This document shows positions 16,500 through 64,000 of a DNA stretch of 64,000 bases, piece by piece. The position numbers were made by a program, and so were the translations under genes. Numbering within the stretch: the stretch's first letter is position 1; the number at the start of each line of letters is the position of its first letter. The stretch is from assembly GCF_009914755.1 (NCBI RefSeq), contig NC_060938.1; one strand, 5' to 3'. This stretch comes from the human T2T-CHM13v2.0 reference genome, Homo sapiens. Below the pieces are notes generated by a model. That model had not been told where the DNA came from. It did not search any database and saw only the letters and a list, made by a program, of their open reading frames with translations.

Positions 16500-16760
16500 G
16501 AGTGGAGTCGAGTGGAGTGGATTGGAGTGCAGTGGAAAGGAATAGAACACAATGCAATGAAGTCGACTAGAGTGCAGTGGAATGGAATGGAATGGAACAG
16601 AATGGAGTGGAGTCGAGTGGAGTGGAGTGCAGTGGAAAGGAATGGAACACAATGCAATGAAGTCGACTAGAGTGCAGTGGAATGGAATGGAATGGAACAG
16701 AATGGAGTGGAGTCGAGTGGAGTGGAGTGCAGTGGAAAGGAATGGAACACAATGCAATGG
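16500..16760 (+). repeat. 100-bp tandem repeat (~2.5 copies)
   Basis: AACACAATGCAATG at 16546, 16646 and 16746; AGTCGACTAG at 16561 and 16661. Confidence 0.9.
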
Positions 16761-36390: not shown

Positions 36391-36910
36391 GAGTAGAGCG
36401 GAGTTGAGTGGAGCGGATCGGAGTGCAGTGAAATGGAATGGAATGCAATGGAATGGAACGGAGTGTGTTGGAATGGAATAGAATGTAATGGAATGGAGAG
36501 GACTGGACTGGAGTGGAGTGGAGCGGAGTGGAATGGAATGGAATGTAATAGAATGGAATGGAGTGGAGTGGAATGGAATTGAGTGGAATGGAGTGGTGTG
36601 GAGTGGAATCGAGTGGAATGGAATGGAATGGAGTGGAGTGGAATGGAATGGAGTAGAGCGGAGTTGAGTGGAGCGGATCGGAGTGCAGTGAAATGGAATG
36701 GAATGCAATGGAATGGAACAGAGTGGGTTGGAATGGAATAGAATGTAATGGAATGGAGAGGACTGGACTGGAATGGAGTGGAGCGGAGTGGAATGGAATG
36801 GAATGTAATAGAATGGAATGGAGTGGAGTGGAATGGAATTAAATGGAATGGAGTGGTGTGGAGTGGAATCGAGTGGAATGAAATGGAATGGAGTGGAGTG
36901 GAATGGAATG
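36391..36910 (+). repeat. 260-bp tandem duplication
   Basis: GAGTAGAGCGGAGTTGAGTGGAGCGGATCGGAGTGCAGTGAAATGG at 36391 and 36651, with downstream markers in register. Confidence 0.88.
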
Positions 36911-39900: not shown

Positions 39901-41519
39901 TTGAATTGAGTGAAATTGAGTGGAGTGGAATGGAGTGGAGTGGAATGGAATGAAGTGGAATGGAAAAAAAGGAACAGAACAGAAATGAATGGAAAGATTT
40001 GGAGTGGAGTGCAGCGGAGTGGATTTGAGTGGAGTGGATCTGAGTGCAGTGGAATGGAATGGAATGGAATGAAATGGAGTGAAGCGGAGTGCAGTGAAGT
40101 GGAGTGCAGTCGAGTGGAATGGAGTGGAGTGGAGTGGAATGGAAAGAAATGGAACGTAATGGAATAGAATGGAATGGAATGGATTGGAATGGAACGGAAT
40201 GGAGTGGAGTGCAGTAGAGGGGAGTTGAGTGGAGTGGATCGGAGGGCAGTGGAAAGGAATGAAATGGAATGGAATGGAATGGCACGCAGTGCAAAGGAAC
40301 TTAGTGGTTTGGAGTGGAGTGGAATGGAATGGAGTGGAGTGGATTGGAGTCGAATGGAGTGGAGTGGAGTGGAATGAAATGGAATGGAATACAGTTGAAT
40401 GGAATGGTGAAATGAAATGTGAGATAAGATTGTGGCACTGCATTCCAGTCTGGCTGACAGAGTGAGATCCAGCAGAAATTAAGGAAAGAAATGGAATGGA
40501 GTAGAATGGAATGAAATGGAGTGGAGTGGAATGGAATGAAGTGGAATGGAGTGGAGTGGACTGGAATGGAGTGGAGTGGAATGGAGTGGAGTGGAATGGA
40601 GTGGAATGGAGTGGAAAGGAATGTAGTGGAAAGGAATGGAGTGGAATGGAATGTAGTGGAATGGAATGGAGTTTAATGGAATGGAGTGGAGTGTAATGGA
40701 GTGGAGTGTAGTGGAGTGTAATGGAGTGGAATGGAGTGGAATGAACTGCAATGGAAGGGAATGCAATGTAATGGAGGGGAATGCAATGGAATGCAATGGA
40801 GTGGAGAGGAATGCAATGGAAAGTAACAGAGTGGAGTGGAGTGAAATGGAGTTGAGTGGAATCGAGTGGATTGGAATGGAGTGGAATGGAGTTGAATGGA
40901 GTGAAATGGAATGGAATTGATTGGAATGGAACAAATTGGCGTGGAGAGGAATGGCGTGGAAGGGAGTGGAATGGAGTGAAATGGAGAGGAGTGAGTTGGA
41001 ATGGAGTGGAGTAAAATGGAGTGGAGTGGAGTGGAATGGAGTGGAGTGGAATGGAATGCAATGGAGTGGAATGGAGTGGAAAGGAATGGATTGGAATGAA
41101 GTGCAATAGAATGGAGTGGAATGGAATGGAGTGGAATGCAACGGCATGGAACAGAGCAGAACTGAATGGAACAGAACGGAATCGAGCGGAGTGGAGTGTA
41201 GTGCAGTGGAGTAGAGGTGAGTGGAGGGGATCGGACTGTAGTGGAATGGAATGGAATGGAATGGAATGGAATGGAATGGAACGGAGTGCAGTGGAGTGGA
41301 GTGGAATGGAGTGGAGAAGAGTGGAGTGGAATGGAATGGAGCGAAGTGGAATGGAATGGAACGGAAAGGAATGGAAAAGAATGGAATGGAATGGAACAGA
41401 AGGGAGTGGAGTGGAGTTGAGTGGAGAAGATGGGAGTGCAGTGGAATGGAATGAAATGAAATGGAAAGGAATAGAATGGAGTGGAGTGGAATGGAATGGA
41501 TTGGAGTGGAGTGGACTGG

Positions 41520-41830
41520 AATGGAATGGAAAGGAATGGAATGGAATGCAAGGGTGAAATGAAATGTGAGCTAAGATTTTACCACTGCACTGCAGTCTTG
41601 GTGACAGAGCGAGATCCAATAGAAATAAAGGAATAGAATGGAATGGAGTGGAATGTAATGGAATGGAGTGGAGTGGAATGGAATGGAAAGGAATGGAATG
41701 GAATGCAAGGGTGAAATGTAATGTGAGCTAAGATTTTGCCACTGCACTGCAGTCTTGGTGACAGAGTGAGATCCAATAGAAATAAAGGAATAGAATGGAA
41801 TGCAGTGGAATGTAATGGAATGGATTGGAG
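41520..41830 (+). repeat. 157-bp tandem duplication including an Alu-derived cassette
   Basis: Cassettes at 41553 and 41710 share private variants (GCAAGGGTGAAAT, AAGATTTT, CTGCAGTCTTGG, CCAATAGAAATAAAG). Confidence 0.9.
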
Positions 41831-43179
41831 TGGAATGGAATGGAGGGGAATGGAGTAGAGTGGAGTGGAATGGAGTGTAGTGGAAAGGACAGGAATAGAA
41901 TGGAAAGGAAGGGAGGGAATGGCATGGAGTGGAATGGAATGGAATGGAATGGAGTGGAATGGAGTGGAATGGAGTAGAATGGAGTGGAATGGAGTGGAAT
42001 GGAATGGATTGGAGTGGAGTGGAATGGAATGGAATGAAGTGGAGTGGAGTGCAGTGGAGAGGAGTGGAATGGAGTAGAATGGAGAAGAATGGAATGGAGT
42101 GGAGTGGAACTGAATGGAATGGAATGGAATGGAAAGGAATGGAACAGATAGGAAGGGAGTGGAATGGAGTGCAGTGGAGTTGAGTGGAGCTGATCTGAGT
42201 GCAGTGGAATGGAATGGAAAGGAATGGAATGGAGTGCAGTGGAATGGAATGGAGTGGAGTGGAGTGGAATGGAGTGGTGTGGAATGGAATGGAATGGAGT
42301 CGAATGGAATGGATTGGAATGGAATGGTTAAATGAAATGTGATCTAAGATTCTGCCACTGCACTCCAGTCTGGGTGACAGAGTGAGATTCAGTCTAAATA
42401 AGAGAACGGAATGGCATGTAGTTGGATGGAATGGAATGGAGTGAAGTGGAATGGAATGGAGTGAAGTGGAATGGAATGGAGTGGAATGGAGTGGAGTGCA
42501 TTGGAATGGAGTGGAGTCGAATCGAGTGGAATGGAGTGGAATGGAATGAAATGGAATGGAGTGGAACGGAATGGAATAGCGTGGAATGGAGTGGAGTAGA
42601 GTGGAATGGATTGAAGAGGAATGGAGTGGAGTGGAGTGGAATGAAGTGGAGTGGTTTGGAAAGGAATGGAATGGAATTTAGTGGAATGGAATGGAAAGGA
42701 GTGGTGTGGAATGGAAACGAATGGATTAGAATGGAGTGAAAAGGAGTGGAGTTAAATGGAGTGGAGTGGAATGGAATGGAGAGGAATGCAACGGAACGGA
42801 ACGGAACGGAACTGAACAGAACGGAATGGAATGGAACAGAGTGGAGTGTAGTGCAATGGAGTGGAGTTGAGTGGAGGGGATCGGACTGTAGTGGAACGGA
42901 AAGGAATGGAATGGAACGGAGTGGAGTGGAGTGGAGTGGAATGGAGTGGAGCAGAATGGAGTGGAATGGAATTGAATGGAGTGGAATGGAATGGAAAGGA
43001 ATGGAATGGAATGGAATGGAACAGAAGGGAGTGGAGTGGAGTGGAGTGGAACTGAGTGGAGATGATGGGAGTGCAATGGAATGGAAATAAATGGAATAGA
43101 ATGGAAAAGAGTGGAGTGGAGTGGAATGCAATGGAGTGGAGTGAAGTGGAGTGGAGTGGAGTGGAATGGAGTGGGGTGG

Positions 43180-43570
43180 AGTGGAGTGGAGTGGAGTGGA
43201 ATGGAATGGAATGGAATGGAATAGTGAAATGAAATGTGAGCTAAGATTCTGCAACTGCACTACAGTCTGGGTGACAAAGTTAGATCCAGTCAAAATAAAG
43301 GAATGGAAAGGTATGGAGTAAAATGAAATGGAATGGGTTGGAGTGAAATGGAATGGAGTGGAATGGAGTGGAGTGGAGTGGAGTGGAATGGAATGGAATG
43401 GAATGGAATGGAATGGAATGGAATAGTGAAATGCAATGTGAGCTAAGATTCTGCAACTGCACTACAGTCTAGGTGAAAAAGTTAGATCCAGTCAAAATAA
43501 AGTAATGGAAAGGTATGGAGTAAAATGAAATGGAATGGGTTGGAGTGAAATGGAATGGAGTGGAATGGAG
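43180..43570 (+). repeat. 202-bp tandem duplication including an Alu-derived cassette
   Basis: Cassettes at 43223 and 43425 share ATAGTGAAAT, GATTCTGCAACTGCACTACAG, GTTAGATCCAGTCAAAATAAAG and the flank AAGGTATGGAGTAAAATGAAATGGAATGGGTTGG. Confidence 0.9.
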
Positions 43571-46500
43571 TGGAGTGGAGTGAAATGGAGTGAAATGGAG
43601 TGGAGTGGAACGGAGTGGAGTGGAGTTTAATGGAATGGAATGGAATGCAGTGGAAAGGGAGGGAATGGAGTGGAGTGGAATGGAGTGGAATGCAGTGGAG
43701 TGCAATGGAATGGAGTGGAATGTTGTGAAATGGAGTGCAGTGGAATGGAGTGGAGTGGAATTGAATGGATTGGAATGGAATGGAACAGAATGGAAGAGAA
43801 TGGAAAGGAGTGCGGTGGAGTGGAGAGGAGTTCACTGGAGTGGATCGGAGTGCACTTGAATTGAATCGAATGAAATGGACTGGAATGGAGTGTAGTGATT
43901 GGAGAGGAGTTTGGTGGAATTGAGTGGAATTGACTGGAGTTGTGAGAAGTTGTGTGGAGTGGAGTGGAATGGAGTGGAATGGAAGGGAGTGGAGTGGTAT
44001 GTAATTGAATGGAACAGAATGGAGTGGAACGGAATGGAATGGAGTGGAGTGGAGTGGAGTTGAGAGGAGTGGGTCGCAGTGCAGTGGAATGGAAAGGAAT
44101 TTGATGGATTTGAATGGAATGTAGTGGAGAGGAATGGAATGGAATAGAATGGAGTGGAGTGGAATGAAATGGAGTGGAGTGGAGTGTAAGGGAGTGGAAC
44201 GGAGTGGTGTGGAATGGAGTGGAATGGAGGGGAATGGAATGGAATGGAATGGAGTGGACTGGAAAGGAATGGATTGGAATGGAATGGAGTAAAGTGTATT
44301 GGAGAGGAGTCGAGTAAAATGGAGTGGAATGGAGGGAAATGGAGTGGAGTGATATGGAGGGGAGAGGAATGGAAAGGAGTGGAATGGAATGAAACAGAAT
44401 GGAATAGAATGGAACAGAGTGGAGTGGAGTCGAATGGAGTGGAGTTGAGTGGAGTGAAACCGAGTGCAGTGGAATGGAATGGAATGGAAAGGAATGGAGT
44501 GGAGTGAAGTAGAGTGTAGTGGAGTGGTGGGGAGTTGAGTGGAATGGTGTGAAATGGAATGGAGTGGAGTGGAGTGGAATGAAATGGAATGTAACGGAAT
44601 GGAAAGTAATGAAATGAAATGGAATGGAAAAGAAAGGAACGGAGTGGAGAGCAGTGGAGAGGAGTTGAGTGGAGTGGATTGGAGTGCAGTGGAATGGAAT
44701 GGAATGCAAATGGATGGAAAGGAATGGGGTGGAGTGGAATGGAATGGAAGGGAGTAGAGTGGAATAGAGTGGAATGGAGTGAAGTGGAATGGAATGGAGT
44801 GGAGTAGAATGGAATGGAATGGAAGGGAATGGAATGGAATGGAATGGTGAAATGAAAGGTGAGCTAAAATTGTGCCACTGCACTCCTTTCTGGGTGACAG
44901 AGTGAGATCCATTTGAAATAAAGGACTGGAATGCAATGGAGTAGAATGGGAAGGAAAGGAGTGAAGTGGAATGGCATGGAGTGGAATGGAATGGAGTGGA
45001 ATGGAATGGAATGGAGTGGAATGGAATGGAGTGGAATGGAGTGGAATGGAATGGAATGGAATGGAATGGAGTGGAATGGAGTGGAGTGGAGATGAGTGGA
45101 GTAGAATGGAGTGGAGTGGAATGGAGGGGTATGGAGAGCAATGGAATGTAATGTAATGGAGTGTAATGGAATGGAATGGAGTGGAATGAAATTGAGTGGA
45201 GCGGAGTGGAGTGGAGTGAAGCGGATTTGAGTGGAGTGGAGTGGAGTTGAATGGACTGTAATGGAATGGAGAGGATTGGAATGAAATGGAACGGAATGGA
45301 ATGGAATGGAATGGAATGGAATGGAAAGAAACAGAAAGGACCTGAGTGGAGTGGACTGGAATGCAGTGGAGTTGAGTGGAGTGGTTCATAGTGGAATGGA
45401 ATGGAAAGGAATGGATTGGAATGGAATGGAGTGGAGTGGAATGGAATGGAATGGAATGGAATGGAATGGAATGGAATGGAATGGAGTGTAGTGGAGTGGT
45501 GTGGAGTAGATTGGAATCGAATGGAGTGTAGTGGAGTGGAATGCAATGGAGTGGAGTGGAATGGTGTGGAGTGGAATGGAATGGAGTGTAGTGGAGTGAT
45601 GTGGACTGCAATGGAATGAAGGGGATTGGAATGGAATGGAACGAAATGGAATGGAATGGAATGGAACGGAAAGAAAGAAACAGAACGGAACTGAGTGGAT
45701 TGGACAGGAATGAAGTGGAGTTAAGTGAAGTGGTTCACAGTGGAGTGGAAAGGAATGGAATGGAATGTAAAGGAACGGAATGGGAAGAAACAGAACAGAA
45801 CTAAGTGGAGTGGAGTGGAATGCAGTGGAATTGAGTGGAGTGGTTCAGAGTGGAGTGGAATGGAATGGAATGGAATGGATTGCAATGGAATGGAGTGGAG
45901 TGGAATGGAATGGAGTGGAGTGGTGTGGGGTAGAGTGGAATGGGATGGAATGGAATGGAGTGTAGTGGAGTAGAATGGATTGGAGTGGAGTGGAGTGTAA
46001 TGGTTTGGAGTGGAGTGGAATGAAGTATAGTGGAGTGGAGTGTAATGGAGTGGAATGGATTGGAACGGAATTAAAAGGAATGGAGTGGACTGGAATGGAA
46101 TGGAGTGGAATGGAATTGAATGGAGTGTACTGGAGTGGAGTCGAGTGGACTGTAATGGAATGGAAATGAAAGAAATGTAGTGGAGTGGTATGGATTGTAG
46201 TGGAATAGAATGGAGTGGAATGGAATGGAACAGAACAGAACGCAACGGAATTGAATGGAATGGAGTGGAGTGGAATGGATTAGAGTGGAGCTGAATGGAG
46301 TGGATTGTAGTGCAGTGGAATGGAATGGAATGGAAAAGAGTGATGTGGGTTACAGTGGAGTGGAGTGGAGTAGAGTGGAGTGGATTGAATTGGAATGGAA
46401 TGGAGTGGAGTGGAATGGAATGGAATGGAACGGTATGGAATGAAATGGAATGCAAAGGTATGGAAAGGAACGGAATGGAGGGGAGTGGAGTACAGTGGAG

Positions 46501-47476
46501 TTCAGTGGATTGTATCCGAGTGCAGTGAAATGGAATGGAATGGAAAGGAATGGAGTCTAGTGGAATGCAAAGGAATGTAATGGAGTAGTGTGGAGTGGAG
46601 TGGAGGGCAGTGGAATGGAATGGAGTGGAATGGCATGGAATGGATTGCAATGTAACGGAATGGAATGGAGTGGAGTGAAATGGAATGAAGTGGATTGGAG
46701 TGGAATGGACTGGAGAGGAATGGAAAGAAGTAGAATGGAATGGGGTGGAGGGAATGGAATGGGGTGGAGTGGAGATGAGTGGAGTGGAATGGAATGGATT
46801 GGAGTGGAATGGACTGGAGTGGGGTGGAAAGGAGTGCAATGGTGTGGAGTGGATTAGAGAGGATTTTAATGGAGTGGAATGGAGAGAAATGCAGTGGAGT
46901 GGAATGGAATGGACTGAAGTGCATTGGAATGGAATGGAAAGGAATGGAATTGAAAGGAATGGAATGGAACGGAAAGGAACAGATTGGAGTGGAGTGGATT
47001 GGAGTGGAGTTGAGTGGAGTGGATCGGAGTGGTGTGGAATTTAATGGAATGCAATGGAAAGGAATGGAATGGAGTGGAGTGGAGTGAAATGGAATGGAGT
47101 GGAGTGGAGTGGAATGGAATGGAATGGAGTGGAATGGAATGGAGTGGAGTGGAATGGAATGGAGTGGAGTGGAATGGAATGGAATGGAAAGAAATGGCAT
47201 GGAAGAGAACGGAATGGAATGGAAAGGAATGGAACAGAGAGGAGTGGAGTGGTGTGTATTGGAGTTGAGTGGAGTGGATAGGAGTGCACTGGAATGGAAT
47301 GGAATAGAATGGAATTGAATGCAATGGAATGGAAAGGAGTCGAGTGGAATGGAGTGGAGTGGCATGGAGTGGAGGGAAGTAGAGTGTAGTGGAGCGTGGT
47401 GGAATGGAATGGAATTGAGTGGAGTGTAATGGAATGGAATGGTGAAATGAAATGTGTGCTAAGATTGTGCCACTGC

Positions 47477-48389
<913 letters not shown>

Positions 48390-49192
48390 TTAGTGTACTG
48401 TAGTGGAATGGAGTGGAGTGGAGAGGACTGCAGTGGAGTTGAGTGGAATGGGGTGGAATTGAGTGGAGTGGAATGGAGTCGAGAGGAATGGAATGGAACG
48501 GAATGGAATGGAATGGAATGGAATGGAATGGAATGCAATGCAATGTAATGGAACAGAATGGAATGGAACAGAACGGAATGGAGTAGAGTGGAATGGAGTG
48601 GAGTTGAGTGTAGTGTAGTGGCGTGGAGTGGAATGGAATGGAATAGAATGAAATGGAATGGAATGGTGAAATGAAATGTGAACTGATTGTGCCACTGCAC
48701 TCCAGTATGTGTAACAGAGTGAGATCCAGTCAAAATAAAAGAATGGAAGGAAATGGAGTAGAATGGAATGGAAGGGAGTGGAGTGGAATGGAATGGAGGG
48801 GAATGAAATGGAATGGAGTGGAATGGAATGGAGTGGAGTGGAATAGAGTGGAATGGAGTGGAATGGAGTGAAACGTAATGGAGTGGAATGGAAGGAATGG
48901 AGTGGAATGGAGTGGAGTGGAGTCGAATGGAGTGGGGTACACTGAGTGGAATGGATTGGAGTGGAATGGAATGGAGTGGAATGGAGTGGAATGGAGTGGA
49001 ATGGAATGGAATGGATTGGGTTGGAATGAAATGGAATGGACTGGATAGCAATGGAGTGGAGTCGAGTGGATTGGAGTGGTGTGGAGTGGAGTGCGATGGA
49101 GTCGAATGGAATGAAATGGAGTGGAGTGGAGTGGAATGAAATGCAATGGAATGGAATGGAATGGAATGGAATGGAATGGAAAGGAACTGAAT

Positions 49193-52100
49193 GGTGAAAT
49201 GAAATGTGAGCTGAGTTTGTGCCACTGCACTCCAGCCTGGGTGACAGAGTGAGATCTTGTCAAAATATAGGAAAGTAATGTTATGGAGTGTACTGGAATT
49301 GAATAGAATGGAATGTAGTGGAGTGGAGTGGAGTAGAGTTCAGTGGAGTGGAGTGGAGTAGAGTTCAGTGGAATGGAGTGGAATGCAATGTGATTCAATG
49401 GAAAGGATTGGAGGGGAGTAGAGTGCAGTTTAATGGAGTGGAATGGAATGGGATGGAATGCAGAGGAGAGGAGAAAAGTGGAGTGGAATGGAATGGAGTG
49501 GAGTGGAGTTGAGTGGACTGGAGTGGAATGGAGTGGAATGGAATGGAAAGGTGAAATGAGATGTGAGCTCAGATTTTGCCACTGTGCTCCAGCGTGTGTG
49601 AGACAGTGAGACCCTGTCGAAAGAAAGGGATGGAATGGAAAGGTGTGTAATGGAAAGGAACGGAATTGAATGGAATGGAGTGGAGTGGAATGGAGTGGAA
49701 TGGAATGGGATGGACTGGAATGGAGTGTAGTGGTGTGGAGTGGACAGAAGTGGTAGGGAGTTTAATGGAATGGAGTGGAGTGGTGTGGAGTGGACTGGAG
49801 TGGAAGGGAGTTGAATTTAATGGGATGGAATGGAATGGAGTGGAGGGGAGTGGAGTGGAGTGGAAAAAAATGGAATAGAATGGAATGGAATGGAATGGAA
49901 TGGAATGGAAAGGAATGGAATGGAATGGAATGGTGAAATGAAATGTGAACTAAAATTGTGTTACTGCACTCCAGCCTGTGTGACAGAGTGAGATCCTGTC
50001 GAAAGAAAGGAATGGAATGGAATGGAGTACAATGAAATGGAATGGAATGGAATAGGGTGGAGTGGCGTGGAGTGGAATGGATTGGAATGTAATGTAATGG
50101 AATGACAATGGAGTGGAGTGGCGTGGTTTGGAATGGAGTGGAATGGAGTGGAATGGAATGGAGTGGAGTGGAGTGGAGTGGAATGGAATGGAATGGAATA
50201 GAATGGAGTGGAATGTAATGGAGTGGAGTTTAGTGGATTGGAGTGGAGTCGATAGGAGTGGAATGGAGTGAAATAGAGTGGAGTTGACTGGAGTGGAGTG
50301 GAATGGAAAGTAACGGAAAGAACTGGAATGGAACTGAATGAAACGGAGTGAGTGGAGTGGAATGGAGTTGAGTGGAGATGATCAGAGTGTAGTTGCATGG
50401 AATGGAATGGAATGGAATGGAGTGGAGTAGAGTGGAGTTTAGTTGATTGTAGTAGAATGGAGTGGAGTGAAGTGGAGAAGACTGCAGTGGAGTTGAGTGG
50501 AATAGAATGAAATTGAGTGGAATGGAATGGAGTGGAGAGGAATGGAATGGAATGGATCGGAATGCAATGGAATGGAATGGATCAGAACGGAATGGAGTAG
50601 AGTGGAGTGGAGTGGAGTGGAATGGAAAGACATGGAATGGAATGGAATGCAATGGAATGGAAAGGGGAAATGAAATGTGAGCTAAGATTGTGCCACTGCA
50701 CTCCTGTCTGGGTGACAGAGGAAGATCCAGTCGAAATAATGGAATGGAAAGGAACGAAGTAGAACGGAATGGAATGGAGTGGACTGGAATGGAATGGAGT
50801 GGATTGGAGTAGGGTGGAGTGGAATGGAGTGGAGTGGAATGGAGTGGAGAAGAATGGAGTGGAATGGAGTGGAGTGGAATGGAAAGGAATGGAGTGGAAA
50901 TGAATGAAATGGAGTGGAATGGATTGGAGTGGAGTGGAATGGACTGCAGTGGAATGAAGTGTTGTGGAATGGAGTGGAATGGAGTGGAATGGACGGGAAT
51001 GGAATTGAATGGAATGGGATGAAGTGCATTGGAATGTAATGGAGTGGAGTGTAGTGGGTTGGAGTGCGTTGGAGTGGAATGGAGGGCAGTAGAGTGAAAT
51101 GGAGTGCAGTGGAAAGGAGGGGAGTGGAAAGGATTGGAGTGGAATGGAAGAGAATGGAACAAAATGGAACGGAATGGAATGGAGTGGAGTGGAGTTGAGT
51201 GGAGTGGATCGGAATGCATTGGAATGGAATGGAATGAAATGGAACGGAGTGGAGTGTAGAGTCGTGGAGTGGAGAGGAGTGGAGTGGAATGGAGTGGAGT
51301 GAAGTGGAGTGGAATGCAATGGAATGGAATAGAATGAAATGGAATGGAATGGTGAAGTTAAATGTGAGCTAAGATTGTGCCACTGCACTCCAGTATGTGT
51401 GACAGAGTAAGATCCAGTCGAAATAAAGGAATGGAACGAAATGGAGTATAATGGAATGGAATGGAGTGGAGTGGAATGGAATGGAGTGGAATGAAATGGA
51501 GTGGAGTGGAATGGATTGGAGTGGAATGGAGTGGAGTGGAATAGAGTGGAATGGAGTGGAATGGAGTGAAATGGAATGCAGTGGAGTGGAAGGAATGGAG
51601 TGGAATGGAGTGGAGTGGAGTCAAATGGAGTGGAGTGCTCTGAGTCTAATGGAGTGGAGTGGAATGGAATGGAGTGGAATGGAATGGAATGGTATGGACT
51701 GGAATGAAATGGAATGGAGTGGAATACAATCGAGTGGAGTGGAGTGGATTGGAGTGGAATGGAGTGGAGTTGAATGGAGTCGAATGGAGTGAAATGGAGT
51801 GGAGTGGAGTGGATGAAATGGAGTAGGAATGGAATGGAATGGAATGGAATGGAATGGAATGGAATGGAATGGAACGGAATGGTGAAATGAAATGTGAGCT
51901 GAGATTGTGCCACTAAACTCCAGCTTTGGTGACAGAGTGAGATCCTGTTGAAAGAAAGGAAAGTAATGTTATGGAGTGTACTGGAATTGAATGGAATGGA
52001 ATGTAGTGGAGTGGAGTGGAGTGGAGCAGAAAGGAGTGGAATGCAATGTGATGCAATGGAAAGGATCGGAGTGGAGTGGAGTGCAGTGGTGTTGAGTGGA

Positions 52101-55100
52101 ATGGAATGGGATGGAATGGAGAGGAGAGGAGAAAAGTGGAGTGAAGTGGAATGGAATGGAATGAAGTGGAGTGGAGTTGAGTGGACTAGAGTGGAATGGA
52201 GTGTAATGGAATGGAAAGGTGAAATGAAATGTGAGCTCAGATTGTGCCACTGTACTCCAGCCTGTGTGAGACAGTGAGACCCTGTCGAAAGAAAGGTATG
52301 GAATGGAATGGAGTGGAATGGAAAGGAATTGAATTGAATGGAGAGGAGTGGGGTGGAGTGGAGTGGAGTGGAGTGGAATGGAATGGGATGGAAAGGAATG
52401 TAATGGTTTGGAGTGGAGTGGCGTTGAGTGATGTGGAATGGAGTGGAATGTAAAGGGATGGATTGCAATGGAGAGGACTGGAGTGGAGTGGAATGGAATG
52501 GAATGGAGTGGAGTGGAATAGAGTGGAGTGCACTGGAGTGCAATGGAATGGAACGGAATGGAATGGAATGGTGAAATTAAATGTGAGCTGTGATTGTGCC
52601 ACTGCACTCCAGCCTGGGTGACACAGTGAGATGCTGACAAAAGAAAGAAATGGAATGGAATGGAGTGCAATGAAATGGAACGGAATGGAGACGAGTGGAG
52701 TGGAGTGCAGTAGAATGGAGAGGAATGAAATGGATTGGAATGGGATGGAATTGAATGGAATGTAGTGGAGTGGAGTGGACTGGAATTGAAAGGAATGAAC
52801 TCGAATGTAATGGAATGGAGTGGAGTGGAGAGGAGTAGAGTGGAGTGGAATGGAATGGTTTCTAGTGGAATTGAATGGAGAGGAGGGTAGTGGAGTGAAG
52901 TATAGTGGAATGGAATGTAATTGAATGGGATTGAATGGAATGGAGTTGAGTGGTGTGGAGTGTACTGGAGTGCAAGGGAGTTGAATGGAATGGATTAGAG
53001 TGGTGTGGAGTGGAATGGAGAGGAAGAGAGTTGAATGGAACGGGATGGAATGGAATGGAGTGGAGTGGAGTGGAATAGAATGGAATGGAATGGAAATGAA
53101 TGGAATAGAATGGAATGGTGAAATGAAATGTGAACTGCAATTGTGTTACTGCACTCCAGCCTGGGTGACAGAGTGAGATCCTGTCAAAGAAATGAATAAA
53201 ATGGAATGGATTAGAATGGAACGGAATGGAATGGAATGGAATGGAATGGAATGGAATGGAATAGAATGGAGTGGAGTGGAGTGGAGTGGAATGGAGTGGA
53301 ATGTAATGGGATGGAATGACATGGAGTGGAGTGGTATAGAGTGGAATGGAGTGGAGTGGAGTGGAATGTAATGGAATGTAATGGAGTTGAATGTATATAG
53401 GGGAGTGGAGTGGAATGGAATGTAATGAAATGGAATGGATTGGAATGCAGTGGAATGTAATGGTGAAACTAAATGTGAGCTGAGATTGTGCCACTGCACT
53501 CCAACCTGGGAGAGAGAGTGAGATCCTGTCAAAAGAAAGGAATGGAACGGAATGGAGTGCAATGGAATTGAATGGAGTGGAATGGAGTGGAGTGGAGTGG
53601 AGTGGAGTGGACTAAAGTGGAGTGGAGTGGAGGGGAATGGAATGGTATGGAATGGATGGAATGGAATGGAATGGAGTGGAGAGGAATGGAGTGGAATGGA
53701 ATGGGATTGAATGGAGTGAATTGGAGTGGAGTGGAGTGGAGTGGAATAGAATGGAGTGGAATGGAATTTAATGGAATGGAATGGAAAGGAAAGGAATGGA
53801 ATGGAATGGTGAAATGTAATGTGAACTGAATCTTTGTCACTGCTCTCCAGCCTGGGTGACAGAGTGAGATCCTCTCAAAACAAAGAAATGGAATTGATTG
53901 GAGTATAACGGAATGTAATGGAATGCAGTAGAGTGAAATGGAGTGGAGTTGAGTGGAATGGAGTCTAATGGAACCGGATGGAATGGAGTGGAGTGGTGTG
54001 GAGTGCAGTGGAATGGAATTGAATGGAATGGAGTGGAATGCAATGGAATGGAATACAGTGGAAGGGATTGGTGAAATGAAATGTCAGCTGGGATTTTGCC
54101 ACTGTACTCCAGCCTGGGAGACAGGGTGAGATCCTGTGGAAAGAAAGGAATGGAACGGAATGGAGTGTAATGGAATGGAATGGAATGGAATGTAGTGGAA
54201 TGGAATGGAATGGAGTGTAATGGAATGGAATGGAATGTGGTGGAATGGAATGGAGTGGCATAGAAAGGGATAGAATGGAATGGAGTGCAGTGGTTTGGAG
54301 TGGACTGAAGTGGAAGGGAGTTGAATGGAATGGAGTGCAGTGGTGTGGAATAGACAGGAGTGGAAGGGAGTTGAGTGGAATGGGATGGAATGGAATGGAA
54401 TGGAGTGGAGTGAAGTGGGGTGGAATAGAATGGAATGGAATGGAATGGAATGGAATGGAATGGAATGGAATGGAATGGAATGGAATGGTGAAATGAAATG
54501 TGAACTGAAATTGTGTTGCTGCACTCCAGCCTGGGTGACAGAGTGAGATCCTGTCAAAAGAAAGGAATGGAATGGAATGGAGTAGAATGGAATGGAATGG
54601 AATGGAATGGAATGGAGTGGAGTGGAGTGGAGTGGAATGGAGTGGAATGTAATGGGATGGAATGACATGGAGTGGAGTGGCATAGAGTGGAATGGAGTGG
54701 AGTGGAGTAGAATGGAATACAGTGGAATGGATATAGTGGTGTGGAGTGGAATGGAATGCAGTGGAATGGAATGGAATGGAAGGGAATGGAATGGAATGCA
54801 GAAGAGTGGAGTGGAGTGGAATGGAATGGAATGGAATGGAATGGAATGGAAAGGAATGCAATGTAATGGAATGTAATGGAATGGTGAAATGAAATGTGAA
54901 CTGAGATTGTGCCACTGTACTCCATCCTGGGTGACAGAGTGAGATCCTGTCAAAAGAAAGGAATGGAATGGAAAGGAGTGTAGTGGAATGGAATGGAGTG
55001 GAGTGAAGTGGAGTGGATTGGCGTGAATGGAATGGGATGGAGTGGAATGGAATGGAGTGGATAGGAGTGGAGTGGAGTTGAGTGGAGTGGATTGGAGTGG

Positions 55101-58100
55101 AATGGAGTGGAATGGAATGGGATGGAATGGAAAGGAGTGGATTGGAGTGGTGTGGAATGGAGTGGAATGGAATGGGATGGAATGGAATGGAGTGCAATGG
55201 AGTGAAGTGGAGTGAAGTGGAATGGAATGGAATGGAATTTAAAATAATTCAATGGAATGAAAAGGAATGGATTGCTATGGTGAAATGAAATGTGAGCTGA
55301 GACTGTCCCACTGTACTCCATCCTGGGTGACAGAGTGAGATCCTGTCTTAAGAAAGGAAAGGAATGGAATGGATTGGAAAATAATGGAGAGGAATGGAAT
55401 GTAGTGGAGTGGGTGGAGTGGAGTGGAGTGGACTGGAGTGGAGTAAAGTGGAGTGGAGTGGAATAGAATGGGATGGAATGGAATGGAATGAAGTGGAGTG
55501 GAGTGGAGTCGACTGGAATGCAGTGAAGTGGAATGGAGTGGAATGGAAAACAATGGAATGGACTCGTGTGTAGTGGAGTGGAGTGGAATGGAGTGTAGTG
55601 GAATGCAATGGAATGGAATGGAATAGAATGCGATGGAATGCAATGGAATAAAATGGTGAAATGAAATGTGAGCTGAAATTGTGCCATGGCACTCCAGCCG
55701 GGTTGTGACAGTGAGATCCTGTCAAAAGAAAGGAAAGGAGTGGAAAGGAGTGGAATGGAATAGAATGGAGTGGAGTGCAGTAAAGTGGAGTGGAATGGAA
55801 TGGGATGGAGTGGAATGGAGTGGAGTGTACAGGAGTGGACTGGATTGGAGTAAAGTGCAGTGAAGTGGAGGGGAGTGGAGGGGAATGGAGTGGAATAGAA
55901 TGGGATGGATTGGAATGGAATGGAATGGAGGTTAGTGGAGTGGAGTTGAGTGGAGTGCACTGGAGTGGAATGGAATGGAATGGAATGGAATGGAATGGAA
56001 TGGAATGGAATGGAATGGAGCCGAGTGGAGTGGAGTGTATTGGAGTGGAATGGAGTGGAGTGGAATTGAATAGAATGGAGTGGAGTTAAATGGAGTGAAG
56101 TGGAGTGGAGTGGAATGGAATAGAATGGAATGGAATGAAATGGAATGGAATGGAATTGAACGGAATGGAAAGGAAAGGAATGGAATGGAATGGAATGCAA
56201 TGGAATGGAATGGAGTGGAATGCAATGGAATGAAATGGAATAGAATGGTGAAATGAAATATGAGCTGAGATTGTGCCACAGCACTCCAATCTGGGTGTGA
56301 CAGTGAGATCCTGTCGAAAGAAAGGAATGGAATGGAAGGGAATGGAATGGAATGGAGTGGAGTGGAGTTGATGGGAGTGGAATAGAGTGGAATTGAGTGG
56401 GATGGAGTGGAATGAAGTGGAGTGGAATGGAGTGGAATTGAATGGGATGAAATGGAGTGGAGTGGAGTGGAATGGAATAGGATGGAACAGAATGGAGTGC
56501 ATTGCAGTGGAGTGGAGAGGAGTGGAATGGAATGGAACGGAGTGGAGTGGACTGGAGGGGAGTAGAATGGAATGGAATAGAATGGAATGGACTCGTGAAA
56601 TGAAATATGAACTGAAATTGTGCCACTGCACTCCAGCCTGGGTAACAGAGTGAGATCCTCTCAAAGAAAGGAATGGAATCGAATGGAGTGGATTGGAATG
56701 GAGTGGAATGGAGTGTAGTGGAGTTGAGTGGAGTGCACTGGAGTGGAATGGAGTGGAATGGAATGGTGAAATGAAATGTGAGATGAGATTGTGCTACTGC
56801 ACTCCAGCTTGTGTCACAGAGTGAGATCCTGTCAAAAGAAGGGAATGGATTGCAGTGAAGTGGAATCAAAAGAAATGGAATGGAATGGAATGGAATGGAA
56901 TGGAATGGAATGGAATGGAATGGAATGGGATGGGATGGGATGGGATGGAATGGAATGGGATGGGATGGAATGGACTGGAATGGGATGGGATGGAATGGAA
57001 TGGACTGAAATGGTATGGAATGGAACGGAGTGGAGTGGACTGGAGTGGTGTGGTATGGAGTGGAATCTAATGGGACAGAATGTAATGGAATGGAGTGGAG
57101 TGGAGTGCAGTGGAGTGGAATGGAGTGGAATGGAATGGGATGGAGTGTAATGATGCGGAGTGGACAGGAGTGGAGTGGAGTGGACTGGAGTGGAGTGGAA
57201 TGGAGTGGAATGTAAAGTGATGCTATAGAAATGATCGGAGTGGAGTGGAGTGGAGTCGAATGGAATGGAATGGAATAAGATGGAATGGAGAGGAGAGGAG
57301 AGGATTGGAGTGGAGTGGAATGGAATGGAATGGAGTGGAGTGGAGTTGAGTGGACTGGAGTGGAATGGAGTGTAATGGAATGGAAAGGTGAAATGAAATG
57401 TGAGCTCAGATTGTGCCACTGTACTCCAGCCTGTGTGACAGAGTGAGACCCTGTCAAAAGAAAGTGATGGAATAGAATGGAGTGGAATGGAAAGGAATGG
57501 AATTGAATGGAGTGGAGTGTAGTGGAATGGAATGGAGTGGAATGGAGTGGAGTGTAGTGGAATGGAATGGAGTGGAATGGAGTGGATTGGAGTGGAATCG
57601 AGTGGAATGGAATGGGATGGAAAGGAATGTAATGGTTTGGAATGGAGTGGAGTGATGTGGAATGGAGTGGAATATAATGGGATGGATTGGAATGGAGTGG
57701 AGTGGAGTGGAGTGGAATGGAATGGAATGGTATGGAATGGAATGGAGAGGAATGGAATGGAATGGAATGGAGTGGAGTAGAATGGAATGGAGTGGAGTGC
57801 ACTGGAATGCAATGGAATGGAATGGAATGCTGAAATTAAATGTGAGCTGTGATTGTGGCACTGCACTCCCGTCTGGGTAGCAGAGTGAGATGCTGTCGAA
57901 AGAAAGGAATGCAATGGAATGGAGTTTAATGGAATGGAACGGAATGGAGATGAGTGATGTGGAGTGGAGTGCAGTTGAGTGGAGTGGAGAGGAATGGAAT
58001 GGAGTTGAATGGGATGGGATGGAATTGAATGGAATGTTAGCGGAGTGGAGTGGACAGGAATGGAATGGAATGGACTGGAATGTAATGGAATGGAATGGCG

Positions 58101-60149
58101 TGGAGTGGAGTGGAGTGGAGTGGATTGGAGTTAAATAGAACGGAATTGAATGCAATGGAATGGTGAAATGAAATGTGATGTGAGATTGTGCCACTGCACT
58201 CCAGCCTCAGTGACAGAGTGAGACTCTTTCGAAGAAAATGAATGGAATGGAATGGAGTGGAATGGAATGGAATGGAGTGGAGAGTAGTGGAGTGGAGTGA
58301 AGTGGAGTGGAGAGGAATGGAATAGTTTGGAGTGGAAATGAATGGAGTGGAGGGTAGTGGAGTGAAATGGATTGGAAAGGAGTGGAATGGAATGGGTTGG
58401 AATGGAGTGGAGTGGTGTGGAGCGGACTGGAGTGGATGGGAGTTGAATGGAATGGAGTAGAGTGGTGTGGAGTGGACTGGAGTGGAAGGGAGTTGAATGG
58501 AATGGGATGGAATGGAATGGCGTGGAGTGGAGTGGAGTTTAATAGAATGGGATGGAATGGAATGGAATGGAATGGAATGGTGAAATGAAATGTGAACTGA
58601 AATTGTGTTACTGCACTCCACCCTGGGTGACAGAGTGAGATCCTGTCAAAAGAAAGGAATGGAATGGAATGGAGTGGAATGGAATGGAGTAGAATTGAAT
58701 GGAATTGAATGGAGTGGATTGGAGTGGAGTTTAGTGGAGTGGAGTGGAATGCTGTGGAATGGAATTGGGTGGAATGGAATGGGATGTAATGGAATGGAAT
58801 GGAATGGAATGGAGTGGAATGGAATGGAATGGAGTGGAGTAGAGTTGATTAGAGTGGAGTGGAGTGGAGTGGAATGGAGTGGAATACAATGGAATTCAAT
58901 GGAATGGAGTGGAGTGGCTTGGAGTGTAGAAGGGTGGACTGGAATGAAGTGGAATGGAACAGAATGGAATGGAATTGAATGGAATGGAGTGGAATGGAAT
59001 GGAATGGAATGGAATGGAGTGGAATGGAATGGAATGGAATGGAATGGAATGGAATGGAATGGAATGAAATGGTGAAATGAAATGTGAGCTGAGATAGTGC
59101 CGCTGCACTCCAGCCTGGGTGACAGAGTGAGATCCTGTTGAAAGAAAGGAATGGAATGGAATGGAATGGAGTTGAATGGAGTGGAGTGAAGTGGAGTGGA
59201 GTGGAGAGGAATGGAGTGGAATGTGATGGGATGGATTGGAGTGGAATGGAGTGGAATGGACTGGACTGAAGTGGAGTGGATTGGAGTGGAATGGAGTGGA
59301 ATGGAGTGGATGGAATGGAATGAAATGGATTGGAATGGAGTTGAGTGGATTGAAGTGGAGTGTAGTGTAGTGGAGTGGAGTGGAGTGCAGTGGAATGTTA
59401 TGGAATGGAAATGAATGGAATGGAATGCAATGCAATGTAATGGTGAAGTGAAATGTCTCCTGAGATTGCTCCACTGCACTCCAGCCTGGGTTACAGAGTG
59501 ATATCCTATCGAAAGAAAGGAATGGAATGGAATGGAGTGGTCTGGAATGGAATGGAATGGAAGGGAGTGTAGTGTAGTGTAGTGTAGTGTAGTGTAGTGT
59601 AGTGTAGTGTAGTGTAGTGTAGTGTACTGTAGTGAAGTGTAGTGTAGTGTAGTGTAGTGCAGTGTAGTGGAGTGGAGTGGAGTTTAATGCAATGGGATGG
59701 AATGGAAGGGAGTGGAGTGGAGTGGAATGCAATGTAGTGAAAGGGAGTGTGATGGATTGGAATGGAGTGGAGTGGAGTGGAATGGAATGGAATGGAGTGG
59801 AATGGAATTGAATGGAATGCAATGGAATGGAATGTCGTGGAATGGATTGGAATGGAATGGTGAAATGAAATGTGAGCTGAGATTGTGCCACTTCACTCCA
59901 GGCTGGTTGACAGGGTGAGATAACTGTCAAAAGAAAGGAGTGGAGTGGAGTGGAGTTGAATGCAATGGGATGGAATGGAATGGAGTGGAGTGGAGTCGAG
60001 TAGAGTGGTTTGGAGTGGAGTGGAATGGAATAGAATGGAAAGGAATGGAATGCAATGGAATGGAATGGAAAGGTGAAATGTAATGTGAGCTGAGATTGTG
60101 CCACTGCATTACAGCCTGGGTTACAGAGTGAGATCCTGTCGAAAGAAAT
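49193..60149 (+). repeat. Dense zone of Alu-3'-end-derived cassettes, mostly type B (27 copies)
   Basis: Type B consensus GGTGAAATGAAATGTGAGCTGAGATTGTGCCACTGCACTCCAGCCTGGGTGACAGAGTGAGATCCTGTC(A/G)AAAGAAA. Approximate starts: 49193, 49550, 49932, 50664 (type A), 51351 (type A), 51881, 52218, 52570, 53117, 53462, 53808, 54070, 54487, 54883, 55279, 55655, 56247, 56594, 56765, 57387, 57829, 58162, 58579, 59071, 59442, 59859, 60072. Confidence 0.93.
59566..59665 (+). repeat. (AGTGT)n microsatellite, 20 units
   Basis: 12 perfect AGTGT units (59566-59625), then 8 more units of which 3 carry single-base variants. Confidence 0.95.
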
Positions 60150-61019
60150 GAATGTAATGGAATGGAGTGGAATGTAATGTAATGGAATGGAATGGAGTGG
60201 GGTGGAGTGCAGTGGAGTGAGGTGGAGTGGAATGGAGTGGAATGGAATGGGACAGAATGGAATGCAGTGGAGTGGATTGGAGCACTTTGAGGCCTATGGT
60301 GGAAAAGGAAATATCTTTACATAAAACCTAGACAGAAGCAGTCTGAGAAACTTCTTTGTGATGTGTGAGGTCTTCTCACAGAGTTGAACCTTTCTTTTTA
60401 TTAAGCAGTTTGGAAACACTCGTTTTGTAGGATCTGCAAGGGGACATTTGGAGCGATTTGAGGCATATGTTGAAAAAAAATCTTCACATGAAAACTAGAC
60501 AGAAGCATTCTACAAACTTCTTTGTGATATGTGCATTCATCTCAAAGAATTGAACCTTTCTTTTGATTCAGCAGCTTTGAAACTCCCTTTTTGTATTATC
60601 TGCAAGTGGACATTTGGAGCGCTTTGAATCATATGATGGAAAAGGAAATATCTTCAAAAAAGCTAGACAGAAGCATTCTGACAAATTTCTTTGTGATGTG
60701 TGCATTCATCTCACAGGTTTGAACCTTTCATTTGATTGAATGGCTTTGAAAGACTTTGTACAATCTGCATGTGGAAATTTGGAGCACTTTGAAGCCTATG
60801 GTGGAAAAGGAAGTATCTTCATATAAAAACTATACAGAAACATTCTGACAAACTTCTTTGTGATGTGTGAATTCATCTCACAGATTTGAAAGTTTCTTTT
60901 CATTGAGCAGTTTTGAAACACTCTTTTTGTAGAATCTGCAAGTAGATATTTGGAGAGTGTTCAGGCCTACGGTGGAAAAGGAAATATCTTCACATAAAAA
61001 CTTAACAGAAGCATTCTGA

Positions 61020-61063
61020 GAAACTTCTTTGTGATGTGTGCGAAACTTCTTTGTGATGTGTGC
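61020..61063. repeat. Perfect 22-bp tandem duplication inside an alpha monomer
   Basis: GAAACTTCTTTGTGATGTGTGC occurs twice (61020-61041 and 61042-61063). Confidence 0.95.
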
Positions 61064-63230
61064 ATTCACCTCACAGTGTTGAAGTTTTATTTTGATTGAG
61101 CAGTTTCAAAACACTCTTTTTGTAGAATCTGCAAGTGGACATTTTGAGCACTGTGAGGCCTAGTGTGGAAAAGGAAACATCTTCACATTAAAACTAGATA
61201 GAATCATTCTGACCAACTTCTTTTGGATGTGCGCATCTATCTTCCAGATTTGAACCTTACTTTCGATTGAGCAGTTCTGAAACACTCTTTTTGTAGAATC
61301 TGCAAGTGGACATTTGGAGCACTTTGCAGGCTATGGTGGAAAAGGAAACATTTTCACATAAAAACTATACCGAATCATTCTGACAAACTTATTTGGGATG
61401 TGTGCATTCATCTGACAGAGTTGGAACTTTCTTTTGATTGATCAGTTTTGAAACACGTTTTGTAGAATTTGCAAGACGACATTTGGAGTGTTTTGAGGCC
61501 TATGGTGGAAAAGAAAATATCTTCACTTAAGTGCTAGACAGAAGCATTCTGAGAAACTTCTTTGTGATGTGTGCATTCATCTCACCGAATTTAACCTTAC
61601 TTTTGATTGAGCTGTTTTGAAACACTCTTGTAGAATCTGCAATAGGACATTTGGAGCGCTTTGTGGACTATGGTGGAAAAGGAAATATCTTCACATAAAA
61701 ACTAGACAGAATCATTCTGAGAAAATTCTTTGTGATATGTGAATTCATCTTAGAGAGTTGAACCTTTCTTTTGATTGAGCAGTTTTGAAAAACTCATTTG
61801 TAGAATCTGCAATTGGTCATTCGGAGCACTTTGAGGCCTATGGTGGAAAAGGAAATATCTTCACATAAAAACTAGACAGAAGCATTCTGAGAATCTTCTT
61901 TATGATGTGTGCACTCATCTCACAGGCTCGAACCTTTCTTTTGGTTGAGCAGTTTGGAAACACTATTTTTGTAGAATATGCAAGTGGATATTTGGAGTGC
62001 TATACTGTCTAAAGTGGAAAAGAAAATATCTTCACATAAAAACTAGACAGAAGCATTCTGAGCAACTCCTTTGACATGTGTGCATTCACGTGACAGAGTT
62101 GAAATTTTCTTATGATTGAGCAGTTTTGAAACATTCTTTTTGAGAATCTGCAAGTGGATATTGGGAGAAATTTGAGGCCTGTTTTGGAAAAGGAAATATC
62201 TTCACATAAAAACTAGATAGAAGCATTCTGAGAAAATTCTTTGTGATGTGTCCATGCATGTCACAGATTTGGAGATTTTTCCATTGAGCAGTTTTGAAAT
62301 ACTCTTTTTGTAGAATCTACAAGTGGACATTTTGGGAGCTTTGAGGCCTATGGTAGAAAAGGAAATATCTTCACATAAAACAAGACAGAAGAATTCTGAG
62401 AAACTTTTTTGTAAGGTGAGCATTCATCTCACAGGGTTGAACCTTTCTTTTGATTGAGCAGTTTTAAACACTCTATTTGTAGAATCTGCAATTGGACATT
62501 TGGAGTGCTTTGCGGCCTATGATAGTGAAAGAAATATCTTCACATAAAATCTAGAGAGAAGCAATCTGAGAAACTTCTTTTTGATTTGTGTATTCATCTC
62601 ACAGTGTTAAACCTTTCCTGTGATTGAACAGTTTGAAACTCTCTTTTTTGTAGAATCTGATAGTGGACATTTGGAGCACTTTGAGGACAATGGTGGAAAA
62701 GGAAATATCTTCACATCAAAACTAGACTGAAGATTTCTGAGAAACTTCATTGTGATGTGTGCGTTCATCACACAAAGGTGAACCTTTATTTTGAGTGAGC
62801 AGTTTGGAAAAACTCTTTATGTAAAATCTGCAAGTAGATATTTGGAGCGCTTTGTGTCCTATGTTATAAAATGAAATACCATCACATAAAATCTCGACAG
62901 AAGCAATCTGAGAAATTTCTTTGTGATGTGTGCATTCATATCAAAGAGTTAAACCTTTGTTTTGATTGAACAGTTTTGAAACTCTCTTTTTGTAGAACCT
63001 GCAATTGGACACTTTTAGCGCTTTAAGGCCTATGGTGGAATAGGAAACGTCTTCACATAAAAACTACACAGAAGAATTCTGAGAAATTTCTTTGTGATAC
63101 GTGCGTTCATCTTACAGAGTTTAACCTTTCTTTTGATTGAGCAGTTTGGAAACACTTTTTGTAGAATCTACAAGTGGACATTTGCAGCTCTTTGAGGGCT
63201 GTGGTAGAAAAGGAAGTATCTTCACATAAA

Positions 63231-63920
63231 ATCTAGACAGAAGCAATCTGAGAAACTTATTTTTGATGTGTGCATTCATCTCACAGAATTAAAAATTTTC
63301 TTTTGATTGAGTAGTTTAGAATTCTCTTTTTGTAGAATCTGCAAGTGGACTTTTGGAGTGCTTTGAGGCCTATGGTGGAAAAGGAAATATCCTCACATAA
63401 AAACTAGACAGAAGAAATCTGAGAAACTTCATTGTGATGTCTGTGTTTATCTCACAGCGTTGAAAATTTCTTTTGATTGAGCAGTTTGAAAACTCTCTTT
63501 TTGTAGAATCTGCAAGTGGACATTTGAAGGGCTTTGCATCCTTTGGTACAAAAGGAAATATCTTCACACAAAATCTAGACAGAAGCAATCTGAGGAACTT
63601 CTTTTTGATGTGTGCATTCATCTCACAGAGTTAAAACTTTCTTTTGATTGAGTAGTTTAAAATTCTCTTTTTGTAGAATCTGCAAGTGGACTTTTGGAGC
63701 GCTTTGAGGCCTATGGTGGAAAAGGAAATATCCTCACATAAAAACTAGATAGAAGAATTCTGAGAAACTTCATTGTGATGTCTGTGTTTATCTCACAGAG
63801 TTGAAAATTTCTTTTGATTGAGCAGTTTGAAAACTCTCCTTTTGTAGAATCTGCAAGTGGACATTTGAAGGGCTTTGCATCCTTTGGTACAAAAGGAAAT
63901 ATCTTCACATAAAATCTAGA
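63231..63920. repeat. Tandem duplication of a 341-bp alpha-satellite dimer
   Basis: Private variants recur at +341: GTGGACTTTTGGAG context (63341/63682), ATATCCTCAC, CTGTGTTTAT, GCTTTGCATCCTTTGGTACAAAAGG (63531/63872). Confidence 0.92.
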
Positions 63921-64000
63921 CAGAAACAATCTGAGAAACTTTTATTGTGATTTGTGCATTCACTTCACAGAGTTAAAACTTTCTTTTGATTGAGCAGTTT

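What the first reader, a model, noticed from the sequence alone, without database searches (positions are those of the whole stretch)
48665..60149. Two cassette types and a ~4-fold density step define age layers, with the more Alu-like type next to the alpha satellite
Seen: left of ~49 kb cassettes read GCTAAGAT..CCAGTCTGGG..GATCCAGTCGAAATAAA (30 copies in ~48 kb). Right of it they mostly read GCTGAGAT..CCAGCCTGGG..GA(T/C)CCTGTC.AAAGAAA (28 copies in ~11.5 kb, counting from 48665). The two types interleave only at 48.6-51.9 kb. Type B matches Alu at the diagnostic sites (GCCGAGAT, CCAGCCTGGG, AluJ-like GAGACCCTGTC). Inference: the short-unit type B zone is the ancestral layer preserved at the array edge, and type A is a later expansion with longer pentamer tracts. 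This parallels the layered-expansion model known for alpha satellite.
Basis: partly seen in the sequence, partly recalled or inferred. Interest (0 to 1): 0.7.

Follow-up and report, generated by a model that had tools for sequence, protein, structure and literature searches.

The report
Two Alu-tagged satellite III lineages
A 61-kb block of human satellite III DNA on chromosome 14 holds two side-by-side repeat types, each tagged by a short Alu remnant; the short-unit type is likely the family's ancestral form, but the two zones here are equally diverged, so they are likely not an old and a young layer.

Summary
In detail: 58 Alu-3'-end cassettes in an HSat3 array, 30 left of 48665 and 28 from there on (3 A, 25 B), four diagnostic sites, 0.62 versus 2.41 per kb. 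The types are whole repeat units, since the spacers differ too. The age-layer reading is only partly supported. For it: B carries the Alu state, occurs genome-wide (401 exact motif hits against 117) and is a little more diverged in six other arrays (9.9%); the A side varies 11-144 kb among paralogs, the B side 11-14 kb. Against it: A and B here are equally diverged (8.9% versus 8.8%); the tree cannot tell nested from sister (AU p=0.52); both ends abut alpha satellite; an inverted paralog 10-15% diverged already has both zones and both junctions; B arrays elsewhere show no alpha neighbour; the interleave is one ~5-kb tandem duplication of a sharp junction. Best reading: two old unit lineages, joined early, then copied as one block across the acrocentrics. 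Alu fragments in HSat3 are known; this substructure was not found in print. Interest modest.

The parts
1..60285 (+). HSat3 array (GGAAT/GGAGT pentamers on +); it begins about 310 bp left of the window, so the window holds nearly all of it (60.6 kb)
1..49190 (+). Type A zone: 31 cassettes up to 48739, long uneven spacers rich in GGAAC, with an A-specific spacer module (GATCGG core)
24780..28400 (+). Copy of 16900-20500 (offset about 7.85 kb, 10% diverged)
27584..31500 (+). Cassette-free 1.4-kb unit in about three tandem copies (8.4% and 4.3% diverged); fills part of the longest gap between cassettes
47441..47829 (+). Type A cassette split by a full-length Alu (47477-47774) with a 14-bp target-site duplication (47463-47476, 47775-47788); site empty in the chr13:11.36 Mb paralog
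48100..50215 (+). First copy of the duplicated A|B junction (A 48680, B 49210, 49567, 49949); lacks 2.2 kb that the chr13 paralog keeps; ends approximate
50216..54780 (+). Second copy of the duplicated junction (A 50681, 51368, then B 51898-54504); ends approximate
51881..60149 (+). Pure type B zone: 22 cassettes, median unit about 380 bp, spacers rich in GGGAT, no A module
60286..64000 (+). Alpha satellite, 171-bp period, 76-81% matches between neighbours; junction with B shared by 27 places in the genome

Best explanation
The array is built of two HSat3 repeat-unit types, each a ~57-bp Alu 3' end with a short A-rich tail plus a pentamer spacer; type B (~380 bp) is likely the ancestral unit of the family, type A (~1 kb) likely arose from it and amplified early, and the two zones were likely joined at one sharp junction at about the time the copies radiated, so that they are not separate age layers here. 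Shown: two types in cassette and spacer; equal divergence; one tandem duplication explains the interleave; the block alpha|A|B|alpha is shared by at least 10 arrays; the A side varies 13-fold in length among six paralogs and the B side 1.2-fold; the Alu insertion and a 2.2-kb loss are younger than the 3-5% paralog split. Inferred: unequal crossing-over and deletion drive the length changes; the density step comes from a longer founding A unit plus duplications of spacer without a cassette; A arose inside a B-type array. No function is proposed for the cassette: it is likely a passive passenger of tandem amplification.
For: Equal depth: 8.9% (32 A) versus 8.8% (25 B), pairwise 15.9 versus 15.5, unchanged after collapsing near-copies. 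Inverted paralog at chr14:6,314-6,322 kb has 5 A then 5 B with both junctions, flanks 10-15% diverged. Junction duplication: 48579-49724 matches 51265-52392 and 49662-50215 matches 54222-54778; the chr13:11.36 Mb paralog keeps the full ~5-kb unit with cassettes in matching order. B ancestral: Alu state at 3 sites; T at the third site in 28,190 Alu-like ends against 571 with A; the majority sequence of B on chr9, chr10 and distal chr14 equals the window's; 134 B copies in six other stretches average 9.9%; 5 full A copies and 3 part-A copies lie among 142 cassettes there, with A-like spacer downstream (GGAAC:GGGAT 7:2 against 65:168, p=0.003; upstream p=0.20). Unit-level difference: GGAAC:GGGAT 324:24 in A against 12:40 in B; 35 A modules in A parts, 0 in the B zone. 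Lengths; a 34-kb interior deletion in the chr14:8.0 Mb paralog; a 27.65-kb triplication on chr21.
Against: Only 74-76 columns per copy: a depth difference under about 2.2 points (27% of depth) would be missed. The tree does not show A nested in B (AU p=0.52; B is a clade in 18 of 1000 bootstrap trees). One of the three polarised sites is an Alu CpG where 46 of 100 listed Alu ends carry A (my tally), so its polarity is softer. The greater depth of other B arrays is weak (p=0.025-0.034), rests on related copies, and fails on chr10 (7.3%) and chr3 (7.8%). A copies inside B arrays could be later imports. The left junction cuts an A module, so a former left B flank may have been lost.
Confidence: 0.62

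Rival explanations
1. Layered expansion: the B zone is an old layer preserved at the alpha edge and the A zone a later expansion that displaced it.
For: A is a derived clade; the exact A motif is listed only on acrocentrics and chr20 (100 of 117 rows seen); the A side has grown recently in some paralogs (chr21 triplication; about 7.4-kb spacing of A motifs at chr14:9.14-9.18 Mb); the B side is static; on chr9 a 21-kb B zone sits at the array's end beside 13 kb without cassettes.
Against: Equal divergence and no gradient; B holds duplications as young as most in A, 8-10%; both zones predate the 10-15% duplication; no mirror symmetry; A-side variation includes large deletions.
Confidence: 0.15
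2. A and B are sister lineages that split before either radiated, amplified in separate arrays and were brought together by a rearrangement.
For: B monophyly not rejected, log-likelihood 0.27 higher when forced; 3 versus 0 substitutions, p=0.25; equal depth; sharp junction; alpha strand flips across the array, which points to a rearrangement site.
Against: A and part-A cassettes sit inside B arrays on chr1, chr9 and distal chr14, without the A module; B majority is unchanged across arrays.
Confidence: 0.2
3. The types are an artefact of chance or of local gene conversion among cassettes only.
For: Interlocus conversion is suggested for short-arm satellites (PMC12724521, passages).
Against: 0 of 100,000 permutations; four linked sites; spacers change with the cassettes; the pattern repeats in paralogs.
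Confidence: 0.03

Closest known systems
HSat3 (human satellite III) with interspersed Alu fragments (T2T-Y preprint 10.1101/2022.12.01.518724; Altemose et al. preprint 10.1101/2021.07.12.452052; passages read)
   Same: Pentamer array on an acrocentric short arm, with ancient TE fragments as part of the repeating unit.
   Different: The T2T-Y passage calls the fragments Alu 'including AluY' and reports no local homogenisation and no clustering by subgroup or chromosome; here two subgroups separate cleanly by sequence, spacer and position.
Layered expansion of alpha satellite (passages)
   Same: Positionally clustered sequence types; a variant that may have been seeded from inside the array.
   Different: No mirror symmetry, no divergence gradient, no kinetochore-linked core; zones are equally diverged.
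HSat1B/DYZ2, WaluSat and other Alu-containing composites (passages)
   Same: An Alu piece carried along by tandem amplification and spread over acrocentrics by segmental duplication.
   Different: HSat1B is a ~2.5-kb AT-rich unit, over 98% identical on Y; WaluSat is a 64-bp monomer next to an AluSx3. Here the unit is an Alu 3' end plus GGAAT/GGAGT tract, about 15% diverged between copies.
'AluJb fragment' newly annotated in Hoyt et al. preprint 10.1101/2021.07.12.451456 (passages)
   Same: A short old-Alu fragment added to the CHM13 repeat library; it may be this cassette.
   Different: The passages give no sequence or location; supplements of bioRxiv papers were closed, so identity is untested and no subtypes are mentioned in the passages.

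Membership tests
HSat3 | Tandem array derived from the GGAAT/CATTC pentamer, with GGAGT variants | tested here: met
   Period 5 over 1-59860, consensus GAATG; GGAAT 60-67 and GGAGT 49-59 per kb; definition
HSat3 | Strand asymmetry over the array, acrocentric or pericentromeric location | tested here: met
   GC skew 0.70-0.88; paralogs on chr13, 14, 15, 20, 21, 22
HSat3 k-mer subfamily (A1-A6, B1-B5) | Subfamily-specific 24-mers | tested here: inconclusive
   4 of 11 published top 24-mers tried (A1, A2, A4, B4): no exact match; 0, 3, 1, 0 matches at one mismatch, all in the A zone. My A/B labels are unrelated to these names.
Alu-derived fragment | Colinear identity to an Alu 3' end followed by an A-rich tail | tested here: met
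   B majority differs at 7 and A at 10 of 56 columns from the full-length Alu in the window; near-identical ends in the genome sample
AluJ origin | AluJ diagnostic positions against subfamily consensus | not testable with these tools
   No consensus library on hand; only 56 columns; the full-length young Alu in the window also ends GAGACCCTGTCTC
Layered expansion (alpha-satellite type) | Older layers are more diverged than the newer layer | tested here: not met
   8.9% versus 8.8%, p=0.89; no trend with position
Layered expansion (alpha-satellite type) | Mirror symmetry of the old layer on both sides | tested here: not met
   Left end is type A abutting alpha in the window and in the inverted paralog; same left junction in 10 arrays; caveat: that junction is a break inside an A module
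Layered expansion (alpha-satellite type) | New layer derives from a variant inside or outside the old array | tested here: inconclusive
   A is a clade and occurs inside other B arrays, but nesting is not shown
Layered expansion (alpha-satellite type) | Age order confirmed by presence in primate lineages | not testable with these tools
   No ape or monkey genomes are held

The most novel reading that the evidence does not exclude
The ~380-bp type B unit is the surviving founder unit of HSat3: the GGAAT tract grew out of the A-rich tail of one old Alu, the unit 'Alu 3' end plus tract' was amplified first, and cassette-poor (type A) and cassette-free arrays arose from it, leaving B relics at array ends on chr1, 3, 4, 9, 10 and the acrocentrics. 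The cassette would then be an alignable marker for dating all HSat3 arrays across apes.
Probability: 0.2. Interest if true: 0.7.

Novelty: new variant of a known kind. Interest (0 to 1): 0.36.

Why it matters
HSat3 pentamer tracts hardly align, so their history is poorly resolved. The cassette, the A spacer module and the two alpha junctions are alignable markers. They show two unit lineages where a published tree saw no subgroups, and a block whose A side changes 13-fold in length while its B side stays put, which can be tested directly in pangenome and ape assemblies. No gene or function is involved, and the headline claim of age layers does not hold for this array.

Tried and rejected
Missed cassettes: none found by a profile search or a scan for C-rich windows. 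Rfam, 44000-64000: 0 matches. Progenitor full-length Alu with a B-like end and tail: 3 hits at 2 mismatches (chr1, chr4, contig C23), not followed up and not taken as evidence. Colinear mapping of the small inverted array: right end maps to 58.3-60.3 kb, left junction maps, the interior is unresolved. Search for paralogs of cassette 49210 returned only the window. Tree of 160 rows: A and B separate with support 79 only, most forks open. Subfamily naming by 24-mers: inconclusive. An apparent excess of C>A in type A (26 against 4) shrank to 10 against 4 distinct site-alleles and is not claimed. Absolute dating rejected: Ts/Tv is 0.54-0.91 in cassettes and 0.69-0.85 in old flanks, and short-arm de novo rates are reported 10-fold raised with fewer C>T (PMC12724521, abstract and passages); pericentromeric rates 1.1-4.1-fold (PMC11062924, passages). 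WaluSat identity rejected on unit structure. Three papers could not be opened: the Science version of Altemose et al., the 2022 satellite review, and Jarmuz 2007, whose 16-23 Mya estimate I saw only second-hand in PMC7767330.
Full report
What is there. Positions 1-60285 are a GGAAT/GGAGT pentamer array (HSat3) followed by 171-bp alpha satellite. The window is chr14:6,200,001-6,264,000 of the genome held as G000. The array starts about 310 bp left of the window and is 60.6 kb long, with alpha satellite on both sides, on opposite strands. It holds 58 cassettes: a constant pentamer-like lead, about 57 bp colinear with an Alu 3' end, and a short A-rich tail. One is split by a full-length Alu with a 14-bp target-site duplication.

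Observation. Counts (30 and 28), the four diagnostic sites, the interleave limits and the 3.9-fold density step are confirmed; 0 of 100,000 permutations cluster the types as well. By median spacing the step is 2.5-fold (930 versus 376 bp). B reads GCTGAGAT, and GAGACCC is rare in both types (4 of 25, 2 of 32).

The types are whole units. Spacers in the A zone have GGAAC:GGGAT 324:24, in the B zone 12:40. A spacer module with a GATCGG core occurs 35 times in A parts of the window, 0 times in the B zone, 6 times in the A part of the small inverted paralog and 0 times in seven other stretches. About one module per cassette overall, with 4 and 6 in the two longest gaps, fits an A unit near 1-1.4 kb whose spacer was sometimes duplicated without a cassette (inference); a 1.4-kb cassette-free unit is triplicated at 27.6-31.5 kb.

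The interleave is one duplication. 48579-49724 matches 51265-52392 and 49662-50215 matches 54222-54778, about 8% diverged in the well-aligned blocks. The chr13:11.36 Mb paralog, 3-5% diverged, keeps the whole ~5-kb unit: of its 10 first-copy cassettes from 11,356,450 on, all find their nearest match in the second copy in order, one being an extra repeat and two tied between sister copies; the copies differ by 9.2%, the window lacks 2.2 kb of the first copy, and the Alu site is empty. So the underlying junction is sharp.

Are the zones age layers? Divergence from each type's own majority is 8.9% (32 A) and 8.8% (25 B), difference -1.6 to +1.4 points, no trend with position; collapsing near-copies changes nothing. 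The test would miss differences under about 2.2 points. B's nearness to Alu rests on three founder sites: without them the distances are 0.215 and 0.216. Three against none does not reject a symmetric split (p=0.25). Two sites are firm (T in 28,190 against A in 571 Alu-like ends; C in the great majority of the 100 listed ends); the first is a CpG where 46 of 100 listed ends carry A, though the exact B word occurs in 10 and the exact A word in 0 (my tally). The tree rooted on the window's Alu has A as a clade (98/97) in an unresolved B; forcing B into a clade is not rejected (AU p=0.52). An inverted paralog 54 kb away has 5 A then 5 B and shares both junctions, with flanks 10-15% diverged, about the pairwise divergence of the cassettes (15-16%): both zones existed from about the time of radiation. 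There is no B left of A; but that end is a break inside an A module, so a lost flank cannot be excluded.

The exact B motif has 401 genome hits, the 100 listed on chr1, 3, 4, 9, 10, 13, 14, with more chromosomes; the A motif has 117, the 100 listed on chr13, 14, 15, 20, 21, 22. Six other stretches hold 134 B among 142 typed cassettes, median spacing 310-599 bp, mean depth 9.9% (p=0.025 and 0.034 against window A and B; copies not independent; chr10 7.3% and chr3 7.8% are not deeper). Five full A and three part-A cassettes sit among them. None of the six fetched stretches shows alpha satellite, so B is not tied to alpha. Ten arrays share both junctions and span 9-157 kb; in six where the junction could be placed, the B side is 11.5-14.0 kb and the A side 10.8-144 kb. 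This comes from duplication (chr21 triplication) and from deletion (34 kb in chr14:8.0 Mb). A is the unstable side, not a demonstrably younger one.

Mechanism. Likely sequence of events: an old Alu 3' end joined to a pentamer tract formed a ~380-bp unit that amplified (B); a variant with four substitutions and a longer spacer (A) amplified beside it; the block between two alpha segments was duplicated with inversion, its junction was tandemly duplicated, the block spread over the acrocentrics and chr20, and an Alu inserted in the lineage now on chr13, 14 and 21. The order of the last steps is shown by paralog divergence; the first two are inferred. Absolute dates are not given because substitution spectra are transversion-rich and short-arm mutation rates are reported far above the genome mean.

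Literature. Passages read: Altemose preprint (TE fragments in HSat3 units; layered model needs mirror symmetry and a divergence gradient); T2T-Y preprint (Alu fragments in HSat3, no clustering by subgroup); Hoyt preprint (an AluJb fragment, WaluSat); PMC4022460; acrocentric evolution preprint; PMC11526998; PMC7767330; PMC11062924; PMC12724521. Seven full-text searches listed no paper describing two cassette types; bioRxiv supplements and three papers were not available and may cover them, and the A|B junction may match a subfamily boundary in the CHM13 satellite track that I could not see.

Verdict. A real and well-supported substructure of a known satellite; founder polarity likely right, age layers not supported here. 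New variant of a known kind, interest 0.36; the founder-unit reading has probability 0.2 and would merit 0.7.

Noticed in passing
window 47477-47774: Full-length Alu inserted in a cassette, 18 CpG in 282 bp; junction found on chr13:13.18, chr14 and three times on chr21, absent from the chr13:11.36 Mb paralog. It looks AluY-like (label recalled, not tested) yet ends like the cassette's source, which may be conversion.
   Followed up: partly
G000:C21:10,196,992-10,278,220: 27.65-kb tandem triplication inside the A side, seen from two markers; ends not mapped.
   Followed up: partly
L016 (chr14:6,199,690) and window 60280: Alpha satellite lies on opposite strands at the two ends of the array; the left junction breaks inside the A spacer module. 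The array may sit at an old inversion breakpoint.
   Followed up: partly
L026-L028 (chr9:76,673,154-76,693,830): The last 21 kb of the chr9 HSat3 stretch hold 53 cassettes (47 B); the 13 kb before have none; the array ends on non-alpha sequence that I recognise as L1 (recalled).
   Followed up: partly
L036 (chr14:8,003,400-8,003,770): A different Alu (89% to the window's) sits near the breakpoint of a 34-kb deletion in this paralog's A side.
   Followed up: no
window cassettes, all: Six of the seven differences between the B majority and the window's Alu end are C>T on the G-rich strand, none G>A; substitutions among copies are transversion-rich.
   Followed up: partly
window 59568-59668: A local run of about 20 GTAGT pentamers inside a B spacer.
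   Followed up: no
G000:C14:9,139,932-9,180,511: A motifs recur at about 7.4-kb steps in a 157-kb paralog, which suggests a tandem expansion (motif spacing only).
   Followed up: no
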